Shown: positions 29,301 through 35,300 of the stretch, in pieces | Layout: each line of letters begins with the position of its first letter | Position numbering within the stretch: the stretch's first letter is position 1 | From: Pocillopora damicornis | Lineage: Eukaryota | NCBI RefSeq assembly: GCF_003704095.1 | Contig: NW_020846126.1 | Span: 1 to 64,000, forward strand | Direction of reading: 5' to 3' | DNA length: 64,000 bases | Position numbers: made by a program

Positions 29301-32300
29301 ATTCAAAATCTAATGGTTTCTTTTCACTGCAACCCAGAGGTATTTTTTTTGTTTGCTCTGTGCTACTGCTTCCAGATATTACTTGTTTGTTGTATGACTC
29401 TAAGTTTCCTTTAAGTTCCTGATCATGGATAGGTAGGTTAATAGTTTTTGGTTTACTATGTTCACAATGGTCAGGACCAGCAGGTGGTTCTAAATCTTCA
29501 CTTTGCATATCTCTTTGGTGAATTGTAGGTTTTTGAGAAGACAACAGCTCAGCATAGGGAGTATTTGCCTGGTTTGTTAAAGTGTTAAATTGCAGGGCAA
29601 CATAATCAGGAAAATCTGGTAAGCCTGATGATGTAACAGAGCTTGTATTGTCAGTGCCTACATGAAGCAACACTCCTTCAGGTGACACTGTTCTATCTGC
29701 ACCATATGACACACCTGATGTTGGCTTATAATGTGGCAAAGACCTTGGAACTTCTCCTTGATGATGACTATCACTTGTGCTATATTGTGATAAAAGTGCT
29801 ATTTTTCCTTTTGATGTCTGTGTAAAACTGCTTTTAATAACTGACGAACTGGAATTGTCAGAAGAAGCTCCAGCCTGAATTCCTTTAAACTGGGAGTCAA
29901 CTTTATGGGCTTCCCGACCAGCATTTGATATACCATGTTGATAATTAGGTTTCTGATTTTCCAATGATGATTTAGAAGGGCGACTGTCTGGAATAGCTTG
30001 GCTTTCTGTCTGTCCTTGCTCTATTCCACTTAGGACAAAAAGCTTCTCCACAGCATCATTTACTACAAAAATAGTATTTAATTTTAACTCAAACTAGATG
30101 TGCTTACCTACATGATTGTTGTGATTTTATACTAAAGAGCTTTTAAAAGATCCTGTCCTATCATCAAGGCAATTCGATTTCCCTTCAAGATAAGCGACTC
30201 TCCTCGCTTTCCTGCAGGGCAAAGCCCCTGAAAAGCTGTACTTGAGTGTCACGTTTCCTTGTATCAAGAACCCCTCACCCCCTTCTCGACAAAATTCTGC
30301 GGTGAAAATCTCTCTTTCCATTCATCCTGTAATTTTTCATTCAGAAAATTTCCCAAAAGATGAAATAGAACTGGAATTGTCGATTGAAACGGACTGGATC
30401 GAATAATAGACAAGTATTATTGCCAACTAAGATATCCGAGCCTTGCTCGCTGAACGAAACGTTAGAAAGCGAAATCACTCTGTAAGTTTACGTGGTTGTA
30501 AAATATTAACAGCACAAACAAATACCAACCATTATAATCACTCTCTGAAAGTACCAGCTGAACAACTCCAGGATCTATTGAACCGGAAAACATATTCTGC
30601 AGTTCGAAAAGCGTGTTCTCTCGCCATCTCAGCTGAACGTCGTTATCTTTCGGTACTTTCTCTGTCGAATCTTTCCCTGATGATGGGGCATCTGGACTTT
30701 GATTTCTTCTCCTAGGCATTTTGAAACGTTACGTTAAGGTAAATGACCCTGGTATGTTCTTCATTATTTCCTAACTCAACCAAAATCAATATGGAAGCTG
30801 ATGACGACGGTGCACAGTGGCCATATTTGAAATAAACAACACTGTTTGGAATTTGCACCCTTTTCAACTTCCGGTCACGTGGATTTCTTTGAAAAGGTGC
30901 TCTTCGCGGACGAAAATTTAGTTTGTTCGAAAAACTCTCAATTAATTGTGTAATTTCAGTTTTTTCGGTGATTCTGGTGGGAATGCCTCCTTTAGAAACG
31001 TAAGGAACAGAGCGGAATATGCCTGCACCGGCTACCCATGGCTTCCGTTGCTTTTCCCTTCGCACTCTTGTTCATCTTTGCCGAAGGTACTGAGCTTGTT
31101 CCCAGACAGTCTCCAAAATGACATCTGTCTTTATATCCATGGTAAACTGTTCAAGGAGAATTCTGCCTTCCGCGCTGCCGTTCTTAGCTGTAAGCGTTCG
31201 CTCGCCTCAAAATTGAAGATTCAGCATTTTTTACCACGTCAGTACGTAATCAAACAAGGAGATGAGACGCACTTTAGAGACATTTCAAACACCACAGCCA
31301 CATTGGGGAAGAGTTCTGTAGTGGGAAATGATTCAATGGGATTAGGAAAAGTGAAGCTCTTACTGTAATGAGAACCATTTGAGGAAAGATAGAGACACAT
31401 TTGCAATAGAAAAGTACGCAGTATTCATCTTTTATTCATCTTTTAGGACTACATCACCAGCACGACCACGTTAAGTTATGGAATATGGGTCTTGGGAGCG
31501 TCTTCATGCCTAACTCCATGAGCCGGTTACTTTGACGGAGTGAAAATGTGACTGACAAATTAAACAAAGTATTATTTTCATTCCTCCCCCCCTGCGCCTA
31601 GTAGTTTATTTCCCGTAACCCCCCTCTTTACTTCTGATATCTTGTTCAGCAGAGGTATTACTATTGACAGCTGTCTTTCCATATGTAAGAGTCTTTGGTC
31701 GATGACCTTCAAGTTTTCTTGAACATCTTTCATTTCATTTGAACTTGAAGACGGTCGAACCATTAGACTACTCATGTCTTCCTTCGGATTTGGAGATTCT
31801 ACATCGGTCTTAGGATATGTTTCTGCACTGGGTTCCAGTCTCCTTGAAGATCCTTCTCCGAAGTCTTCGAACAGTTCTACCTCTTCCTCCTCCTGGAAAA
31901 CACAATAAGGAGCAATTCCTCAGAGGCTGAACAGAAAATTCTCTCCCGCCCTGTGTTTTCTTCCTCAATGAGTTGTGATTCATAACTTGTGGATTGTCAA
32001 TTTGTTTTCGTCCGATTACAGTGATGTTTCCTAGTTTTGAATCGTATGACTATAGATATTATCAAAGAGACCAGTGTCACCCTCAAGCTTTTCCCCTCAG
32101 TGTAAAATTGTTCACATGGGTGCGTTGAACAATTCAGGGTATAATTTCTTCTAAATATATATCTATGTGTCCTTAAGGCTCCTTAAATCACACTAATGAG
32201 CACTATTTGTATCCTGTCGGTATTCTTTAAAAGCGAACTTTGAATTTAAATTATTTCAGTTTTAATTGCGTACTGTGTTGTATTCTTGCGGAAGACTCTT

Positions 32301-35300
32301 CACTCTGACAGAGCCTCTGTCCGCTTAGGAATAAGAATAAGTACAATTTACCCCGCCCTCTCCCGGTTAAGTGCGAAAATTATACTAAACAGACGTCCCT
32401 TGAAGGAAAGCGTGTACTATGCACGGAAAGTTTTAGTTAATGGAGCCATTAAATGCCCCATCACATTTAAATTAAACACACTTTCTTGTGATGTCCAATT
32501 TGATATGCGAAGACCATCCTTGCCAAGAACTCTTCTCTAAATACAGGATACATTTTGAAAATGGCTGTCAGATCGCTCCATTCGATGTAATGAATGTCAG
32601 AGGGGGTCTGTACGATCACATTGGCAACAGCCCGTGCTTTGATTTCTGAGGATTTGTCTTCGCTGTAGATTGTATCACCCCTCCCTAGGTATAAAAAGAC
32701 TTTAATCAATAAATTACGCACGCAGCTTGGGGTATATGCTGACACAACTAGATTTAAAAAGAGGATATAACAATGTGCCAAGTAGATTTTGTTCAAGTTG
32801 TATAATTCCTGAATGCCCATATAACTGATTTCGAAACAGTTTGCAAGGAAGATATTTGAACTGACAATATGGTCCACTCACGCCAAGTACACAGCTCTTA
32901 AATTTCCTTACCAAGGGCAAGAATTATCTTCTCATCCAGCGTCACGTGAACAATTCCTTTTACGACAAAAAAAACCTTGTTCATCTCATCTCCTTGTTTG
33001 ATCACGTACTGACGTGGTAAAAAATGCTGAATCTTCAACTTTGAGGCGAGCGAACGCTTACAGCTAAGAACGGCAGCGCGGAAGGCAGAATTCTCCTTGA
33101 ACAGTTTACCATGGATATGAAGACAGATGTCATTTTGGAGACTGTCTGGGAACAAGCTCAGTACCTTCGGCAAAGATGAACAAACTGTATATCAGCAAGA
33201 CATTATTATCTCATGATATCAGGATATAATTATCTACGTGCATAATAAGTCCTTAAAGCTCCACTCCGCAGAAAATTGTAAAACATCCTTTATCCATACT
33301 CGTTTAGAATGCGAAAGTTTTCAAACTTATTTTAAAAGCAAGAAGGCAATGATAATGTGGAATCGCCTAGTTAAAATGAAGGAACCCCTTTGGAGGGAAG
33401 GTGGGAGAAATGTGAGTCAAATAAAAGTAATTGAAAAACTTACCTCATTGATATCCGACATTGTCATTGCACAAGCGTCATTTATCACGTGCTTCTCAAG
33501 ATCTTCCCGCAGAGCTTGCGGTATCTCGTAGAAGCGCACAAAGTTCCGGACGAGTCGAAGGCCTTCGTGCTGCTTAAAATTCTGAAGGTACAACCTCTGG
33601 ATAATCACCGTCAAATTACCAAATATGGAGGCGTACATCAGGGCTTAATGTAATAAAATAAAGTAATCTTCTATCAAAAATTCCATCAACAGTGTCTAAA
33701 CCCTGTTTTAAAGGGACTCTCATCATCAGCGAGTCATCGTCTTGAAAGCGAATAGATTTAATGATGCTAGTGGTGGACACATGGAAAAAAAACCCGTAAC
33801 CGCATAGTATAGTCAAAATCGCTCACCTCCCATAAGCATCACGATGATGGAAAAAATCCTCTCATTGTTCGTAGTTGGAGCAACGTTTCCAAACCCCACA
33901 CTGGTTAAACTGCTCAGAGTAAAATATAGAGAAGTGAGGTACCTAGCCTTAAGGCTTGGTCCACTTGTTGGAATAGACTGATTTATTGGTTTGTTGGTGT
34001 TTTTGGCGAGTAAAGCTAGCCAGCCAATTTCACTGTGTGCCTCAGACGCTCCAATAGCATGCCATATACAAGCTAGCCAATGAGCAACAAGCATGAACAG
34101 ACATGTGAGCAGCAGAATGACAGCTAAACCATACTCTGAATAACGGTCCAATTTTCGCGTCACCCGCACCAGGCGCAAGAGCCGCGCGGTCTTTAACAAA
34201 CCCATGAGTGTGGTGTCCTGGAACAAATATTACAATAAATAATTTCGCTTTCCATAGATATGAACAAGGACTTATTTTTTAATAAGAAGTGAAATAAACA
34301 CTGGGAAATTATCAAATATCAAAGAAAACCTACAAATTGCCAATTACTCGGTGTTACTTGCTGCAAGTTGTTTCAGGTATAGACGCTGTGATCAGAATCT
34401 AACTCCATGGCGTCATTACCTGACGAACTATGGACTATGTGTTAATCAAAGATTTACTCACCCCCTCCTGCTGAGGATCAACTAAGAACTCGAACGGAAT
34501 AGCTGACACAAAATCCACAATAAACCATGACTTGAGGTAAAGAACTGCGATCTCTTTGGGGTCACTAATAATCGCTTCGGAATGCCTTTTGATAGATGCA
34601 CTTCGAAAATTGATCGGAATATCGATTATAAAGAGAAAATCTGCGAAAACGTTCGTGGCTACTATCGGGGAGAGAGCCATTAAGGCGCCAAAACGAGAGG
34701 TACTAGCACCAGTCTGACTCGGTCTCAGGAACGCTACATCGAAAGGGATCTCAATTGTGGTGTAAATGACAAAAACAAGGATGACCCAGTCCCACACGGC
34801 CTTGAAGAGGGAATCATGACGTATCAGGCACGTTTTGTTTTTGTAAGGTGAGTTATTAGCCTCGTATGACTTGCTGTATATTCTCTGTGGTGACAAAAAA
34901 GTATAAGTATGTTTAGATACTGGAGGCAGCCAAGAAGCATTAAGATTAAGTCTGAATGGTTCTTTAACTTGGTACTTTTTACTAAACATATATACGGCTT
35001 CCTATGATGAGAATTGCGCATTTTTGTATTGCCAGCTGGGGTTCATTTTCTTTCCGACTTCACAACAAAAGCTAAGGCATTTTTTGTTTTCTTCAGCTTA
35101 GAATGTCTGTGCAGGTAGAGCTCAGCCAAAGCAACTAGTTAAGACAGGACACGTGTATATACCTACCCCAGATCTCATGATCGTTGTTTTAGCATAGATC
35201 CCCTTTGCTGCCTTGAGTTAGAAATGAGAACGGGAGTTAAATCTACAATACTGACGTCGTACGGTATTGGCTTGTTAAATTTTGGGAACATACTTTCATG

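What the first reader, a model, noticed from the sequence alone, without database searches (positions are those of the whole stretch)
31068..33183. 200-bp inverted exon copy just past the Erg-B poly(A) site: a potential long-hairpin (endo-siRNA) or co-opted exon locus
Seen: 31068-31267 (+) is the reverse complement of 32984-33183 with only three transitions (C>T, G>A, G>A). It lies about 165 bp beyond the Erg-B AATAAA and about 350 bp upstream of the N4BP2 ATG. Inference: any Erg-B transcript reading through its poly(A) site would fold into a roughly 200-bp near-perfect duplex with its own CNBHD exon. That is a Dicer/ADAR substrate that could self-silence or edit the channel mRNA, or sequester the splice acceptor. 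The copy also keeps the acceptor (ttgttcatctttgccgaag|GTA) and an open frame (ORF 30946-31368), so divergent transcription from the N4BP2 promoter could use it.
Basis: partly seen in the sequence, partly recalled or inferred. Interest (0 to 1): 0.7.

Follow-up and report, generated by a model that had tools for sequence, protein, structure and literature searches.

The report
Inverted exon-fragment copy beside coral Erg gene
A 200-base piece of a coral potassium-channel gene has been copied backwards into the short gap before the next gene; it is most likely a young, harmless DNA-repair scar that could make double-stranded RNA only if transcription ran past the gene's normal end.

Summary
31068-31267(+) is the reverse complement of 32984-33183, 197 of 200 bases identical with three transitions (blastn E 1e-97). 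There are only these two copies in the window.

The source is 19 nt of intron plus the first 181 nt of a 253-nt CNBHD exon. That exon belongs to an eag-less Erg-type K+ channel gene on the - strand of a stony-coral genome, whose nearest named relative is Stylophora pistillata. The copy sits 164 nt beyond the gene's only AATAAA and 349 nt upstream of the ATG of an N4BP2-like gene.

Three features point to a real, recent DNA-level templated insertion made during break repair, not a retrocopy or transposon. A 6-nt direct repeat flanks the copy. A 10-nt inverted repeat brackets the source. Microhomology at the junctions is 0-1 nt.

A read-through transcript would fold into a roughly 200-bp duplex (199 of 200 arm bases paired). 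However, a well-formed poly(A) site lies between the arms, and I had no RNA data. The co-opted-exon idea has no support.

Independent confirmation of the junctions was not possible. Most likely this is a neutral scar with latent hairpin potential.

The parts
31068..31267 (+). Inverted copy: 19 nt of intron 3' end plus 181 nt of the Erg-B CNBHD exon, sense on the + strand (antisense to both neighbouring genes)
   Evidence: 197 of 200 identical to rc(32984-33183), E 1.4e-97. tblastn 95.6% over 68 aa.
32984..33183 (-). Source segment in Erg-B: intron bases 33183-33165 and exon bases 33164-32984
   Evidence: The exon translation is conserved in other corals (P0001-P0008; P0010, P0013, P0019).
32912..33164 (-). 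Whole 253-nt Erg-B exon encoding the end of the C-linker and the start of the CNBHD
   Evidence: Splice sites read. Pfam cNMP_binding 26.5 bits, just under the 27.5 cut-off. PDB matches to KCNH CNBHD structures, E 3e-15 to 4e-12.
31061..31066 (.). Left copy of the 6-nt direct repeat CGCACT flanking the insertion; one extra C at 31067 lies between it and the copy
   Evidence: A flanking direct repeat of 6 nt or more within 0-2 nt of the ends occurs for 67 of 20000 random 200-nt segments of the window.
31268..31273 (.). Right copy of the 6-nt direct repeat CGCACT (target-site-duplication-like)
32977..32986 (.). One arm (TTGTTCATCT on +) of a 10-nt perfect inverted repeat bracketing the source segment; the copy's breakpoint (32984) falls inside it
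   Evidence: A terminal inverted repeat of 10 nt or more occurs in 9 of 20000 random segments.
33174..33183 (.). Other arm (AGATGAACAA on +) of the 10-nt inverted repeat; it ends exactly at the other end of the source segment
31431..31436 (-). The only AATAAA on the - strand between the Erg-B stop and the N4BP2-like ATG, followed by a U/GU-rich stretch
31578..31892 (-). Last coding exon of Erg-B (stop at 31580-31578), containing a coiled-coil-like C-terminus
   Evidence: Stylophora P0010 residues 569-651 align at 63%.
30717..30719 (-). ATG of the N4BP2-like gene (MPRRRNQ...)
   Evidence: Downstream exons carry P-loop, CUE/DUF7816, DUF1771 and Smr pieces.
31130..31135 (-). TATAAA on the - strand inside the copy, created by the copy-specific C>T change at 31132
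   Evidence: Function untested; one such hexamer is about what chance gives in an AT-rich 860-nt spacer (my estimate).

Best explanation
This is a real, evolutionarily young, DNA-level inverted duplication. A roughly 200-nt fragment of Erg-B (the intron/exon boundary plus 181 nt of the CNBHD exon) was captured in reverse orientation at a staggered double-strand break 1.7 kb away, in the 860-nt spacer between Erg-B and the N4BP2-like gene, and was sealed by end joining. It is a pseudo-exon fragment that is already starting to decay and most likely has no function. Its only built-in property is that any RNA containing both arms forms a roughly 200-bp duplex. That would occur in an Erg-B transcript that ignores its poly(A) site, or in a long + strand transcript from the N4BP2 promoter side. 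The existence, content, junction anatomy, fold and direction of one substitution are shown. The repair mechanism, the neutrality and the rarity of read-through are inferred.
For: (1) Two copies only, 197 of 200 identical, with sharp ends.
(2) The copy contains 19 nt of intron and no poly(A) tract, so it came from DNA or unspliced RNA and not from mRNA.
(3) A 6-nt direct repeat CGCACT flanks it (67 of 20000 random segments), as expected from fill-in of a staggered break. Assembly chimeras do not make this.
(4) Junction microhomology is 0-1 nt, plus one extra C, which looks like end joining.
(5) The source segment is bracketed by a perfect 10-nt inverted repeat (9 of 20000 random), suggesting a secondary-structure-delimited fragment.
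(6) The copy's flanks are unique in the window, and no transposon hallmark or Pfam domain was found.
(7) The one amino-acid change (His>Tyr, 31132) hits a His kept in the Stylophora, Oculina, Porites and Nematostella proteins that I aligned and in all 8 orthologous exon ORFs. That change therefore arose in the copy, as expected for an unconstrained fragment.
(8) Copy versus source is 98.5% at the nucleotide level, whereas the Stylophora orthologue is 92% at the protein level over the same exon. The event therefore looks younger than that split.
(9) A canonical-looking poly(A) site lies between the arms.
(10) Templated and inverted insertions of donor DNA at breaks, joined by NHEJ, are documented experimentally in yeast (PMC11724301, passages read).
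Against: - There is no independent data set for the junctions. The protein collection holds the source exon from a near-identical genome (P0001) but nothing covering the copy's flanks (0 of 8 hits).
- Three differences in 200 nt is also the order of the divergence I inferred between the window and P0001's genome from a few intron-derived residue differences, read at the protein level only. An allelic origin in a mis-assembly is therefore not excluded.
- The 6-nt repeat and the 10-nt inverted repeat were noticed after the fact, so their nominal rarities (0.3% and 0.05%) overstate their significance.
- The yeast insertions described in PMC11724301 are mostly much shorter (most 5-34 bp for the local foldback class).
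- Neutrality is assumed, not shown. I had no RNA or population data.
Confidence: 0.6

Rival explanations
1. Nascent hairpin-RNA (endo-siRNA) locus. Erg-B transcripts that read through the poly(A) site fold into a 181-200-bp duplex. Dicer cuts it into siRNAs that are loaded into the siRNA-carrying Argonaute and cleave Erg-B mRNA, or ADAR hyper-edits it. Either would give negative feedback that scales with read-through.
For: The duplex is thermodynamically dominant (199 of 200 arm bases paired in the 2161-nt fold; -389 kcal/mol for the arms). On the - strand two of the three differences are G.U wobbles. The host is a hexacoral. For Hexacorallia, Fridrich et al. [quoted passage not shown] The review PMC9923473 repeats this. 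The copy is only 164 nt beyond the AATAAA, well inside the zone Pol II normally transcribes before terminating (general knowledge).
Against: - A well-formed poly(A) site separates the arms. After cleavage the downstream arm is on a separate, uncapped, short-lived RNA (general knowledge).
- I had no small-RNA or RNA-seq data.
- There is no Rfam match in 28000-36000 (0 hits at E<=1).
- The fragment shows a derived non-synonymous change and no sign of conservation.
- Calcino et al. 2018 (PMC6211395, passages) argue that most unique endo-siRNAs in the sponge they analysed come from cis-NATs rather than hairpins.
Confidence: 0.12
2. Assembly artefact. A chimeric read, or a piece of the other haplotype's exon, was placed in reverse in the spacer. 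The three differences would then be allelic.
For: The window comes from a scaffolded assembly (100-N gap at 727-826). A near-identical genome in the protein collection (P0001) differs from the window at a few intron-derived residues next to this exon, so about 1% allelic or sister-lineage divergence exists. No independent sequence covers the junctions.
Against: Both junctions are clean, lie in unique sequence and are 30 kb from the only gap. The insertion is flanked by a 6-nt target-site-like duplication, which a chimera would not create. Fold-back read artefacts give adjacent palindromes, not a 200-nt arm 1.7 kb away (general knowledge).
Confidence: 0.1
3. Trans-acting or promoter-associated antisense. 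The copy lies in the upstream region or long 5' UTR of the N4BP2-like gene. N4BP2 sense transcripts starting upstream of 31267, or the post-cleavage Erg-B downstream RNA, would carry up to 181 nt antisense to Erg-B mRNA and pair with it in trans. Alternatively, the inserted DNA has altered the N4BP2 promoter.
For: The copy is 349-548 nt upstream of the N4BP2-like ATG on the same strand. The copy-specific C>T change creates a TATAAA on the N4BP2-sense strand at 31135->31130.
Against: A composite E-box/ETS-like motif, CCACGTGACCGGAAGT, lies on the - strand at 30882->30867 (read). Its meaning as a TSS-proximal motif is recalled, not tested. If that meaning holds, the core promoter is about 150 nt upstream of the ATG, which leaves the copy outside the transcript. 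A TSS about 30 nt downstream of the TATAAA would include only about 35 nt of the copy. One TATAAA is about what chance gives in this AT-rich spacer. There are no expression data.
Confidence: 0.08
4. Substrate for a 1.7-kb inversion. Recombination between the two inverted arms would flip 31268-32983 (the rest of the CNBHD exon, the last two coding exons and the poly(A) site). Erg-B would then be truncated after ...KQGDE and read into the copy's flank. The result would be a somatic or germline on/off polymorphism.
For: There are 200 nt of 98.5% identity in inverted orientation 1716 nt apart. After such an inversion the exon would continue exactly as the present + strand ORF does, open for 32 more codons.
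Against: This is purely structural reasoning. 200 nt is near the lower limit for efficient homologous recombination (general knowledge). I had no read-level data.
Confidence: 0.05
5. Co-opted coding exon on the + strand, spliced through the retained acceptor into a new transcript from a bidirectional N4BP2 promoter.
For: The acceptor AG and 19 nt of intron are retained. The frame is open over 30946-31368. A weak GT (ACT|GTAATG) overlaps the stop.
Against: - There is no upstream + strand exon to splice from.
- No donor was copied.
- There is no Pfam hit.
- The openness is not unusual (3.8% of random positions).
- 0 of 8 database ORFs extend into the flanks.
- The fragment encodes only part of a domain.
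Confidence: 0.02

Closest known systems
Hairpin-RNA (hpRNA) endo-siRNA loci of Drosophila, and the hexacorallian model of siRNA/miRNA birth by inverted duplication of a target gene (Fridrich et al. 2020, PMC7713132; the plant model of Allen et al. 2004 is cited there)
   Same: An inverted duplicate of part of a protein-coding gene. The arms are long and near-perfect (197 of 200). The host belongs to the clade for which the model was proposed.
   Different: In those loci both arms lie in one dedicated transcription unit, separate from the target. Here one arm is the target gene's own exon, and the other lies beyond its poly(A) site, so a hairpin needs read-through. No small RNAs or transcripts were available to show activity.
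[quoted passage not shown]
   Same: The donor sequence is copied from elsewhere and inserted at a break, with 0-few nt of junction microhomology consistent with end joining. Inverted orientation and the involvement of short inverted microhomologies or secondary structure also match.
   Different: Most local foldback insertions in that study are 5-34 bp and lie immediately next to the break. Here the insert is 200 nt and 1.7 kb from its donor. It has a 6-nt flanking duplication, and the 10-nt inverted repeat brackets the donor rather than priming synthesis. Simple foldback priming from those arms would copy the outside flanks, not the loop (my reasoning).
Pseudogene-derived inverted repeats that give endo-siRNAs in mouse oocytes (Tam et al. 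2008 and Watanabe et al. 2008; seen only as entries in the reference list of PMC6211395; content recalled)
   Same: A gene-fragment copy in inverted orientation, able to pair with the parent sequence.
   Different: Those are usually processed pseudogene copies at distant loci that pair in trans or as pseudogene inverted repeats. This is an unprocessed 200-nt fragment in cis.
Processed retrocopy
   Same: A gene fragment at a new site, with a short flanking duplication.
   Different: It contains intron sequence, has no poly(A) tract and ends inside an exon.

Membership tests
hpRNA / hairpin endo-siRNA locus | Long inverted-repeat arms with near-perfect complementarity | tested here: met
   197 of 200 identical; 199 of 200 arm bases paired in the fold of the 2161-nt - strand RNA; -389 kcal/mol for the arms.
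hpRNA / hairpin endo-siRNA locus | Both arms lie in a single transcript | not testable with these tools
   No RNA data. The sequence shows an AATAAA plus a U/GU-rich downstream element between the arms on the - strand, which argues against it for most transcripts.
hpRNA / hairpin endo-siRNA locus | Dicer-sized (21-23 nt) small RNAs from the arms, loaded in the siRNA Argonaute | not testable with these tools
   No small-RNA data. Rfam scan of 28000-36000 gave 0 matches at E<=1, which says only that no curated RNA family is there.
Templated insertion / small inverted segmental duplication by break repair | A donor elsewhere with near-identity and sharp junctions | tested here: met
Templated insertion / small inverted segmental duplication by break repair | Junctions with little or no microhomology, possibly with untemplated bases (end joining) | tested here: met
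   0-1 nt of microhomology at each junction and one extra C at 31067.
Templated insertion / small inverted segmental duplication by break repair | No transposon carrier sequence | tested here: inconclusive
   The flanks are unique within the 64-kb window and the ORF gives no Pfam hit. However, no genome-wide repeat library for this organism could be searched.
Processed retrocopy | Introns absent | tested here: not met
   19 nt of the upstream intron are included.
Processed retrocopy | 3' poly(A) tract | tested here: not met
   The copy ends ...GGAGATGAGA, followed directly by CGCACT.
MITE / cut-and-paste DNA transposon | Terminal inverted repeats on every copy, and a multi-copy family | tested here: not met
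   The 10-nt inverted repeat is complete only at the source; the copy keeps 3 nt of one arm. The source is a conserved coding exon. Only two copies exist in the window.
Erg (Kv11, KCNH2-like) channel gene, for the host gene | Pore/S5-S6 region closest to Erg rather than Eag or Elk, and a CNBHD present | tested here: met
   The pore exon scores 173 bits against KCNH2 structures versus 119-124 bits against KCNH1 and KCNH5. The CNBHD exon matches KCNH CNBHD structures. Named coral hits are annotated as KCNH2/6/7-like or unc-103-like and carry Ion_trans plus cNMP_binding but no PAS, which fits the eag-less anthozoan Erg2 clade described in PMC9989356. No phylogeny was built.
N4BP2-like, for the downstream gene | P-loop kinase-like N-terminus with CUE-type, DUF1771 and Smr domains | tested here: inconclusive
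   Searched exon by exon. DUF1771 scores 36.3 bits (above its cut-off) and DUF7816 28.7 bits (above its cut-off). CUE, the Smr pieces, AAA_33 and Zeta_toxin are below their cut-offs, as expected for split domains. The exons were not joined.

The most novel reading that the evidence does not exclude
This is a 'day-zero' hairpin-RNA gene caught at birth in a reef coral. When poly(A)-site use at Erg-B weakens, for example under stress-induced read-through, the channel's own transcript folds back on the 200-nt inverted copy. It is then diced into siRNAs that cleave Erg-B mRNA. This would be the first, still near-perfect stage of the inverted-duplication route to endo-siRNAs and miRNAs proposed for Hexacorallia. 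It would have the unusual twist that one arm is the target gene's own exon, so the circuit is autoregulatory and in cis.
Probability: 0.08. Interest if true: 0.7.

Novelty: new member of a known kind. Interest (0 to 1): 0.3.

Why it matters
If it is only a repair scar, it is an ordinary small structural mutation. Its value is then as a clean example, with donor, target-site duplication and junctions all intact, of how gene fragments get inverted next to their parent gene. If it is transcribed as a hairpin, it would give the hexacorallian model of small-RNA gene birth by inverted duplication of a target gene (PMC7713132) a concrete, datable first-stage example. That example would be testable with existing small-RNA and RNA-seq methods. 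The inverted arms also create a possible 1.7-kb inversion polymorphism that would truncate the channel. Anyone genotyping this locus should be aware of that.

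Tried and rejected
1. Independent evidence for the junctions, from three attempts.
 - The 140-aa copy ORF was searched against the protein collection. It returned 8 hits, all orthologous or source CNBHD exons, and 0 of 8 extended into the copy's flanks.
 - The exact look-up of six junction-spanning ORFs and P0001 could not be made (the database was switched off).
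 - The search with the 53-aa junction ORF 31242-31400(-) found no candidate. That ORF is not in the collection even for the window itself, so this is uninformative rather than negative.

2. Transposon carrier. The flanks are unique in the window, there is no Pfam domain, and the whole-window repeat scan shows no related family. This idea is rejected as far as 64 kb allows.

3. Older, larger duplication later homogenised. Sensitive blastn (word 7) finds no similarity beyond the 200 nt. tblastn extensions of coral proteins upstream of 31068 are gap-ridden and near-random. Rejected.

4. Known RNA family in 28000-36000: none.

5. The ORF as evidence of coding. Its openness is not unusual. Rejected.

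6. Simple foldback priming from the 10-nt inverted repeat. It would copy sequence outside the segment, not the segment itself (my reasoning). It is therefore rejected as the direct mechanism. The repeat is kept only as a hint that a structured single-stranded fragment was the donor.

7. The mutational signature of the three transitions. With n = 3 and none in a CpG context, read by eye from the alignment, it is not informative.

8. Not done.
Only the unspliced genomic RNA was folded.
 - The genome-contig collection holds only bacteria and archaea, so it was not used.
 - No eukaryotic genome or read collection was available. Presence or absence in other corals or colonies therefore stayed unchecked.

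Full report
OBSERVATION. The inverted copy is real in the sequence given.
- The repeat finder reports arms 31068-31272 / 32979-33183.
- A base-by-base alignment shows that the true homology is 31068-31267 = reverse complement of 32984-33183, with 197 of 200 identical. The next five positions match 3 of 5 by chance.
- The three differences are transitions. In copy versus source sense strand they are 31132 T/C, 31212 A/G and 31248 A/G.
- blastn of 30700-31600 against the whole window (word size 7, E<=1) gives this match at E 1.4e-97. It finds no third copy and no other similarity of the flanks, apart from one 30-nt hit at E 0.17.
- In the whole 64-kb window only three inverted pairs of 60 nt or more exist.
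- The window has one 100-N gap, at 727-826, far from the locus. It was left untouched.

CONTEXT. The window is not human.
- The S5-pore-S6 exon (33816-34229, - strand) is most similar to named stony-coral proteins: Stylophora pistillata 90%, Oculina patagonica 82%, Porites lutea 75%, Montipora capricornis 73%, Acropora 70% and Nematostella 68%. The genome is therefore a scleractinian close to Stylophora.
- Against solved structures, that exon scores 173 bits with KCNH2 (hERG) and 119-124 bits with KCNH1 and KCNH5. The exon holding the source segment matches KCNH CNBHD structures and, weakly, Pfam cNMP_binding (26.5 bits against a cut-off of 27.5).
- The closest coral proteins carry Ion_trans and cNMP_binding but no PAS domain. 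This fits the eag-less anthozoan Erg2 clade described in PMC9989356 (passages read; that paper counts 4 Erg genes in Stylophora).
- A second, tandem Erg paralogue lies upstream on the same strand at about 36.9-41.0 kb, with 40-68% amino-acid identity per exon. The copy matches Erg-B's own exon (95.6% amino-acid identity), not Erg-A's (46%).
- Downstream on the same strand is an N4BP2-like gene. Its ATG is at 30719. It has a P-loop exon at 28117-28380, a CUE/DUF7816 exon, a DUF1771 exon and two Smr pieces.
- All protein searches were done exon by exon. 

ANATOMY.
- The Erg-B exon is 33164-32912 (253 nt; acceptor ...ttgccgaag|GTA, donor G|gtaagg).
- The duplicated segment is 19 nt of the upstream intron plus the first 181 nt of the exon. 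It stops inside the exon.
- It therefore came from DNA, or at most from unspliced RNA. It has no poly(A) tract.
- The copy lies on the + strand, antisense to both genes. It is 164 nt beyond the only - strand AATAAA (31436->31431) and 349 nt upstream of the N4BP2-like ATG.
  - A 6-nt direct repeat, CGCACT, flanks the insertion (31061-31066 and 31268-31273). One extra C lies at 31067. A repeat of this kind within 0-2 nt of the ends is found for 67 of 20000 random 200-nt segments of the window.
  - The source segment is bracketed by a perfect 10-nt inverted repeat (32977-32986 and 33174-33183). One end of the copy coincides with the end of one arm, and the other breakpoint falls inside the other arm. 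An inverted repeat of 10 nt or more at the ends occurs in 9 of 20000 random segments.
  - Both features were noticed after the fact, so these frequencies are indicative only.
- Microhomology between donor and target at the two junctions is 0-1 nt.
- Of the three substitutions, one is non-synonymous (His>Tyr) and two are synonymous in the copy's frame.
- The His is present in the Stylophora, Oculina, Porites and Nematostella proteins and in all 8 orthologous exon ORFs recovered. That change therefore happened in the copy.
- The same C>T change creates a TATAAA on the - strand at 31135->31130.

ORIGIN (inferred).
- The content (intron included, no poly(A) tract), the target-site-like duplication, the blunt-looking junctions with one untemplated base, and the unique flanks fit capture of a roughly 200-nt fragment of nearby DNA at a staggered break, sealed by end joining.
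- Templated and inverted insertions at breaks, with NHEJ-type junctions and a role for short inverted microhomologies and single-strand secondary structure, are documented in yeast (PMC11724301, passages read).
- Most of those events are shorter than this one.
- Simple foldback priming from the 10-nt arms would copy the outside flanks rather than the loop. I therefore use that paper as the nearest mechanism class, not as a match.
- A processed retrocopy is excluded by the intron bases and the lack of poly(A).
- A MITE is excluded because the copy lacks one terminal repeat and the source is a conserved exon.
- The copy-to-source identity is 98.5% at the nucleotide level, while the Stylophora orthologue is 92% at the protein level over this exon. 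This suggests that the event post-dates that split, unless gene conversion has intervened.

WHAT IT COULD DO.
- The unspliced - strand RNA from 33200 to 31040 (2161 nt) has a minimum-free-energy fold in which 199 of 200 source-arm bases pair with the copy.
- The arms alone give -389 kcal/mol, with one C.A mismatch and two G.U wobbles.
- Against that condition, the AATAAA is followed within about 15-45 nt by CA dinucleotides and a U/GU-rich stretch. This is a canonical-looking cleavage site, so mature read-through mRNAs are probably rare.
- After cleavage the downstream arm would sit on a separate, unstable RNA (general knowledge).
- The N4BP2-side spacer contains CCACGTGACCGGAAGT on the - strand at 30882->30867.
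- I recall that E-box and ETS motifs are typical of start-site-proximal promoters. This was not tested here. If it holds, the copy is upstream of the N4BP2 transcript rather than inside it.
- The co-opted-exon idea finds nothing in its favour. There is no upstream + strand exon, no copied donor and no Pfam hit. The ORF's extension beyond the copy (40 and 32 codons) is matched at 3.8% of random positions (7685 of 200000).
- No Rfam family matches 28000-36000.
- A further structural consequence is that the arms could mediate inversion of 31268-32983, which would truncate Erg-B. This is reasoning only.

COMPARISON WITH WHAT IS KNOWN.
- The closest functional analogue is the hairpin-RNA class of endo-siRNA loci. 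The closest model is that of Fridrich et al. 2020 for Hexacorallia. In it, inverted duplications of coding genes give hairpins whose siRNAs load into AGO2 and later evolve into miRNAs (PMC7713132, passages read; summarised in the review PMC9923473).
- This locus meets the structural criterion, long near-perfect arms derived from a coding gene, in the right clade.
- It differs in that one arm is the parent gene's own exon and the other lies beyond its poly(A) site.
- The criteria that define membership, a single transcript and Dicer-sized small RNAs, could not be tested.
- Calcino et al. 2018 (PMC6211395, passages) list hairpin RNAs among non-bilaterian small-RNA clusters, but for the sponge they attribute most unique endo-siRNAs to cis-NATs.
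- I did not find, and did not specifically search for, any paper on this locus.

WHAT STAYED UNCHECKED.
- The main gap is whether the copy exists in independent data.
- The protein collection returned the source exon from a near-identical genome (P0001) and seven orthologous exons. None of the 8 extends into the copy's flanks.
- The exact look-up of junction ORFs was not available.
- A search with the 53-aa junction ORF found nothing. That is uninformative, because the ORF is not in the collection at all.
- No eukaryotic genome, read, transcript or small-RNA collection was available.
- Supplementary files of the cited papers were not opened. Supplementary Data 4, 7 and 8 of PMC7713132 list endo-siRNA loci and extended-homology cases, and could show how often such young duplications occur.

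VERDICT.
- Best reading (0.6): a real, young, break-repair-type inverted templated insertion of an Erg-B exon fragment. It is probably neutral, with latent potential to form double-stranded RNA.
- Rivals: a nascent hpRNA locus (0.12), an assembly artefact (0.10), a promoter or trans-antisense effect on or through N4BP2 (0.08), an inversion substrate with phenotypic consequence (0.05) and a co-opted exon (0.02).
- It is a new member of a known kind. Interest is 0.3. It would rise to about 0.7 if arm-confined siRNAs or read-through hairpin transcripts were found.

Noticed in passing
window 432-725 and 2025-2326: A second inverted repeat: about 300-nt arms, 89% identical with 12 gap positions, about 1.3 kb apart. 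The left arm abuts the 100-N gap at 727-826. It is older than the Erg-B copy, has no other copy in the window, and is possibly the ends of a transposon. The N stretch was left as it is.
   Followed up: partly
window about 36936-41009 (- strand) and 31578-35001 (- strand): Two tandem Erg-type channel genes in head-to-tail order, 40-68% identical per exon. Both have a coiled-coil-like last exon. The closest named coral proteins lack a PAS/eag domain.
   Followed up: partly
window 31130-31135 (- strand): The copy-specific C>T change at 31132 turns GATATGAAG into GATATAAAG on the N4BP2-sense strand. This creates a TATAAA about 415 nt upstream of the N4BP2-like ATG.
   Followed up: no
window 30867-30882 (- strand): CCACGTGACCGGAAGT, an E-box adjacent to an ETS-type CCGGAAGT motif, lies about 150 nt upstream of the N4BP2-like ATG. 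It is a plausible core promoter. The motif meaning is recalled, not tested.
   Followed up: no
window 33169-33366 (- strand) versus P0010 residues 345-404: The Stylophora 'isoform X2' model (651 aa) aligns at 39% identity to the intron upstream of the CNBHD exon and reads ...FIFAPK before VLSLFP. That predicted isoform therefore seems to read through the intron or use an extra exon there.
   Followed up: no
window 14245-14547 and 16193-16609 (- strand): Two ORFs that look by eye like fibroblast-growth-factor (beta-trefoil) exons (...VRIKGVATERYLAMGINGTL......LQILPDGTINGT...). The resemblance is recalled and was not run against Pfam.
   Followed up: no
window 50780-52455 (- strand): ORFs resembling glucosamine-6-phosphate deaminase/isomerase (...FNMDEYVGLPRDHPESYHSFMW...). 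Judged by eye only.
   Followed up: no
window 54010-62206 (+ strand): A large, serine- and acidic-rich multi-exon gene with two short Cys/His zinc-finger-like motifs (CPVCSFSF...HINSCLD; CPICGKRF). Its identity was not tested.
   Followed up: no
window 44853-45013: Two 68-nt direct repeats, 88% identical, 93 nt apart start to start.
   Followed up: no
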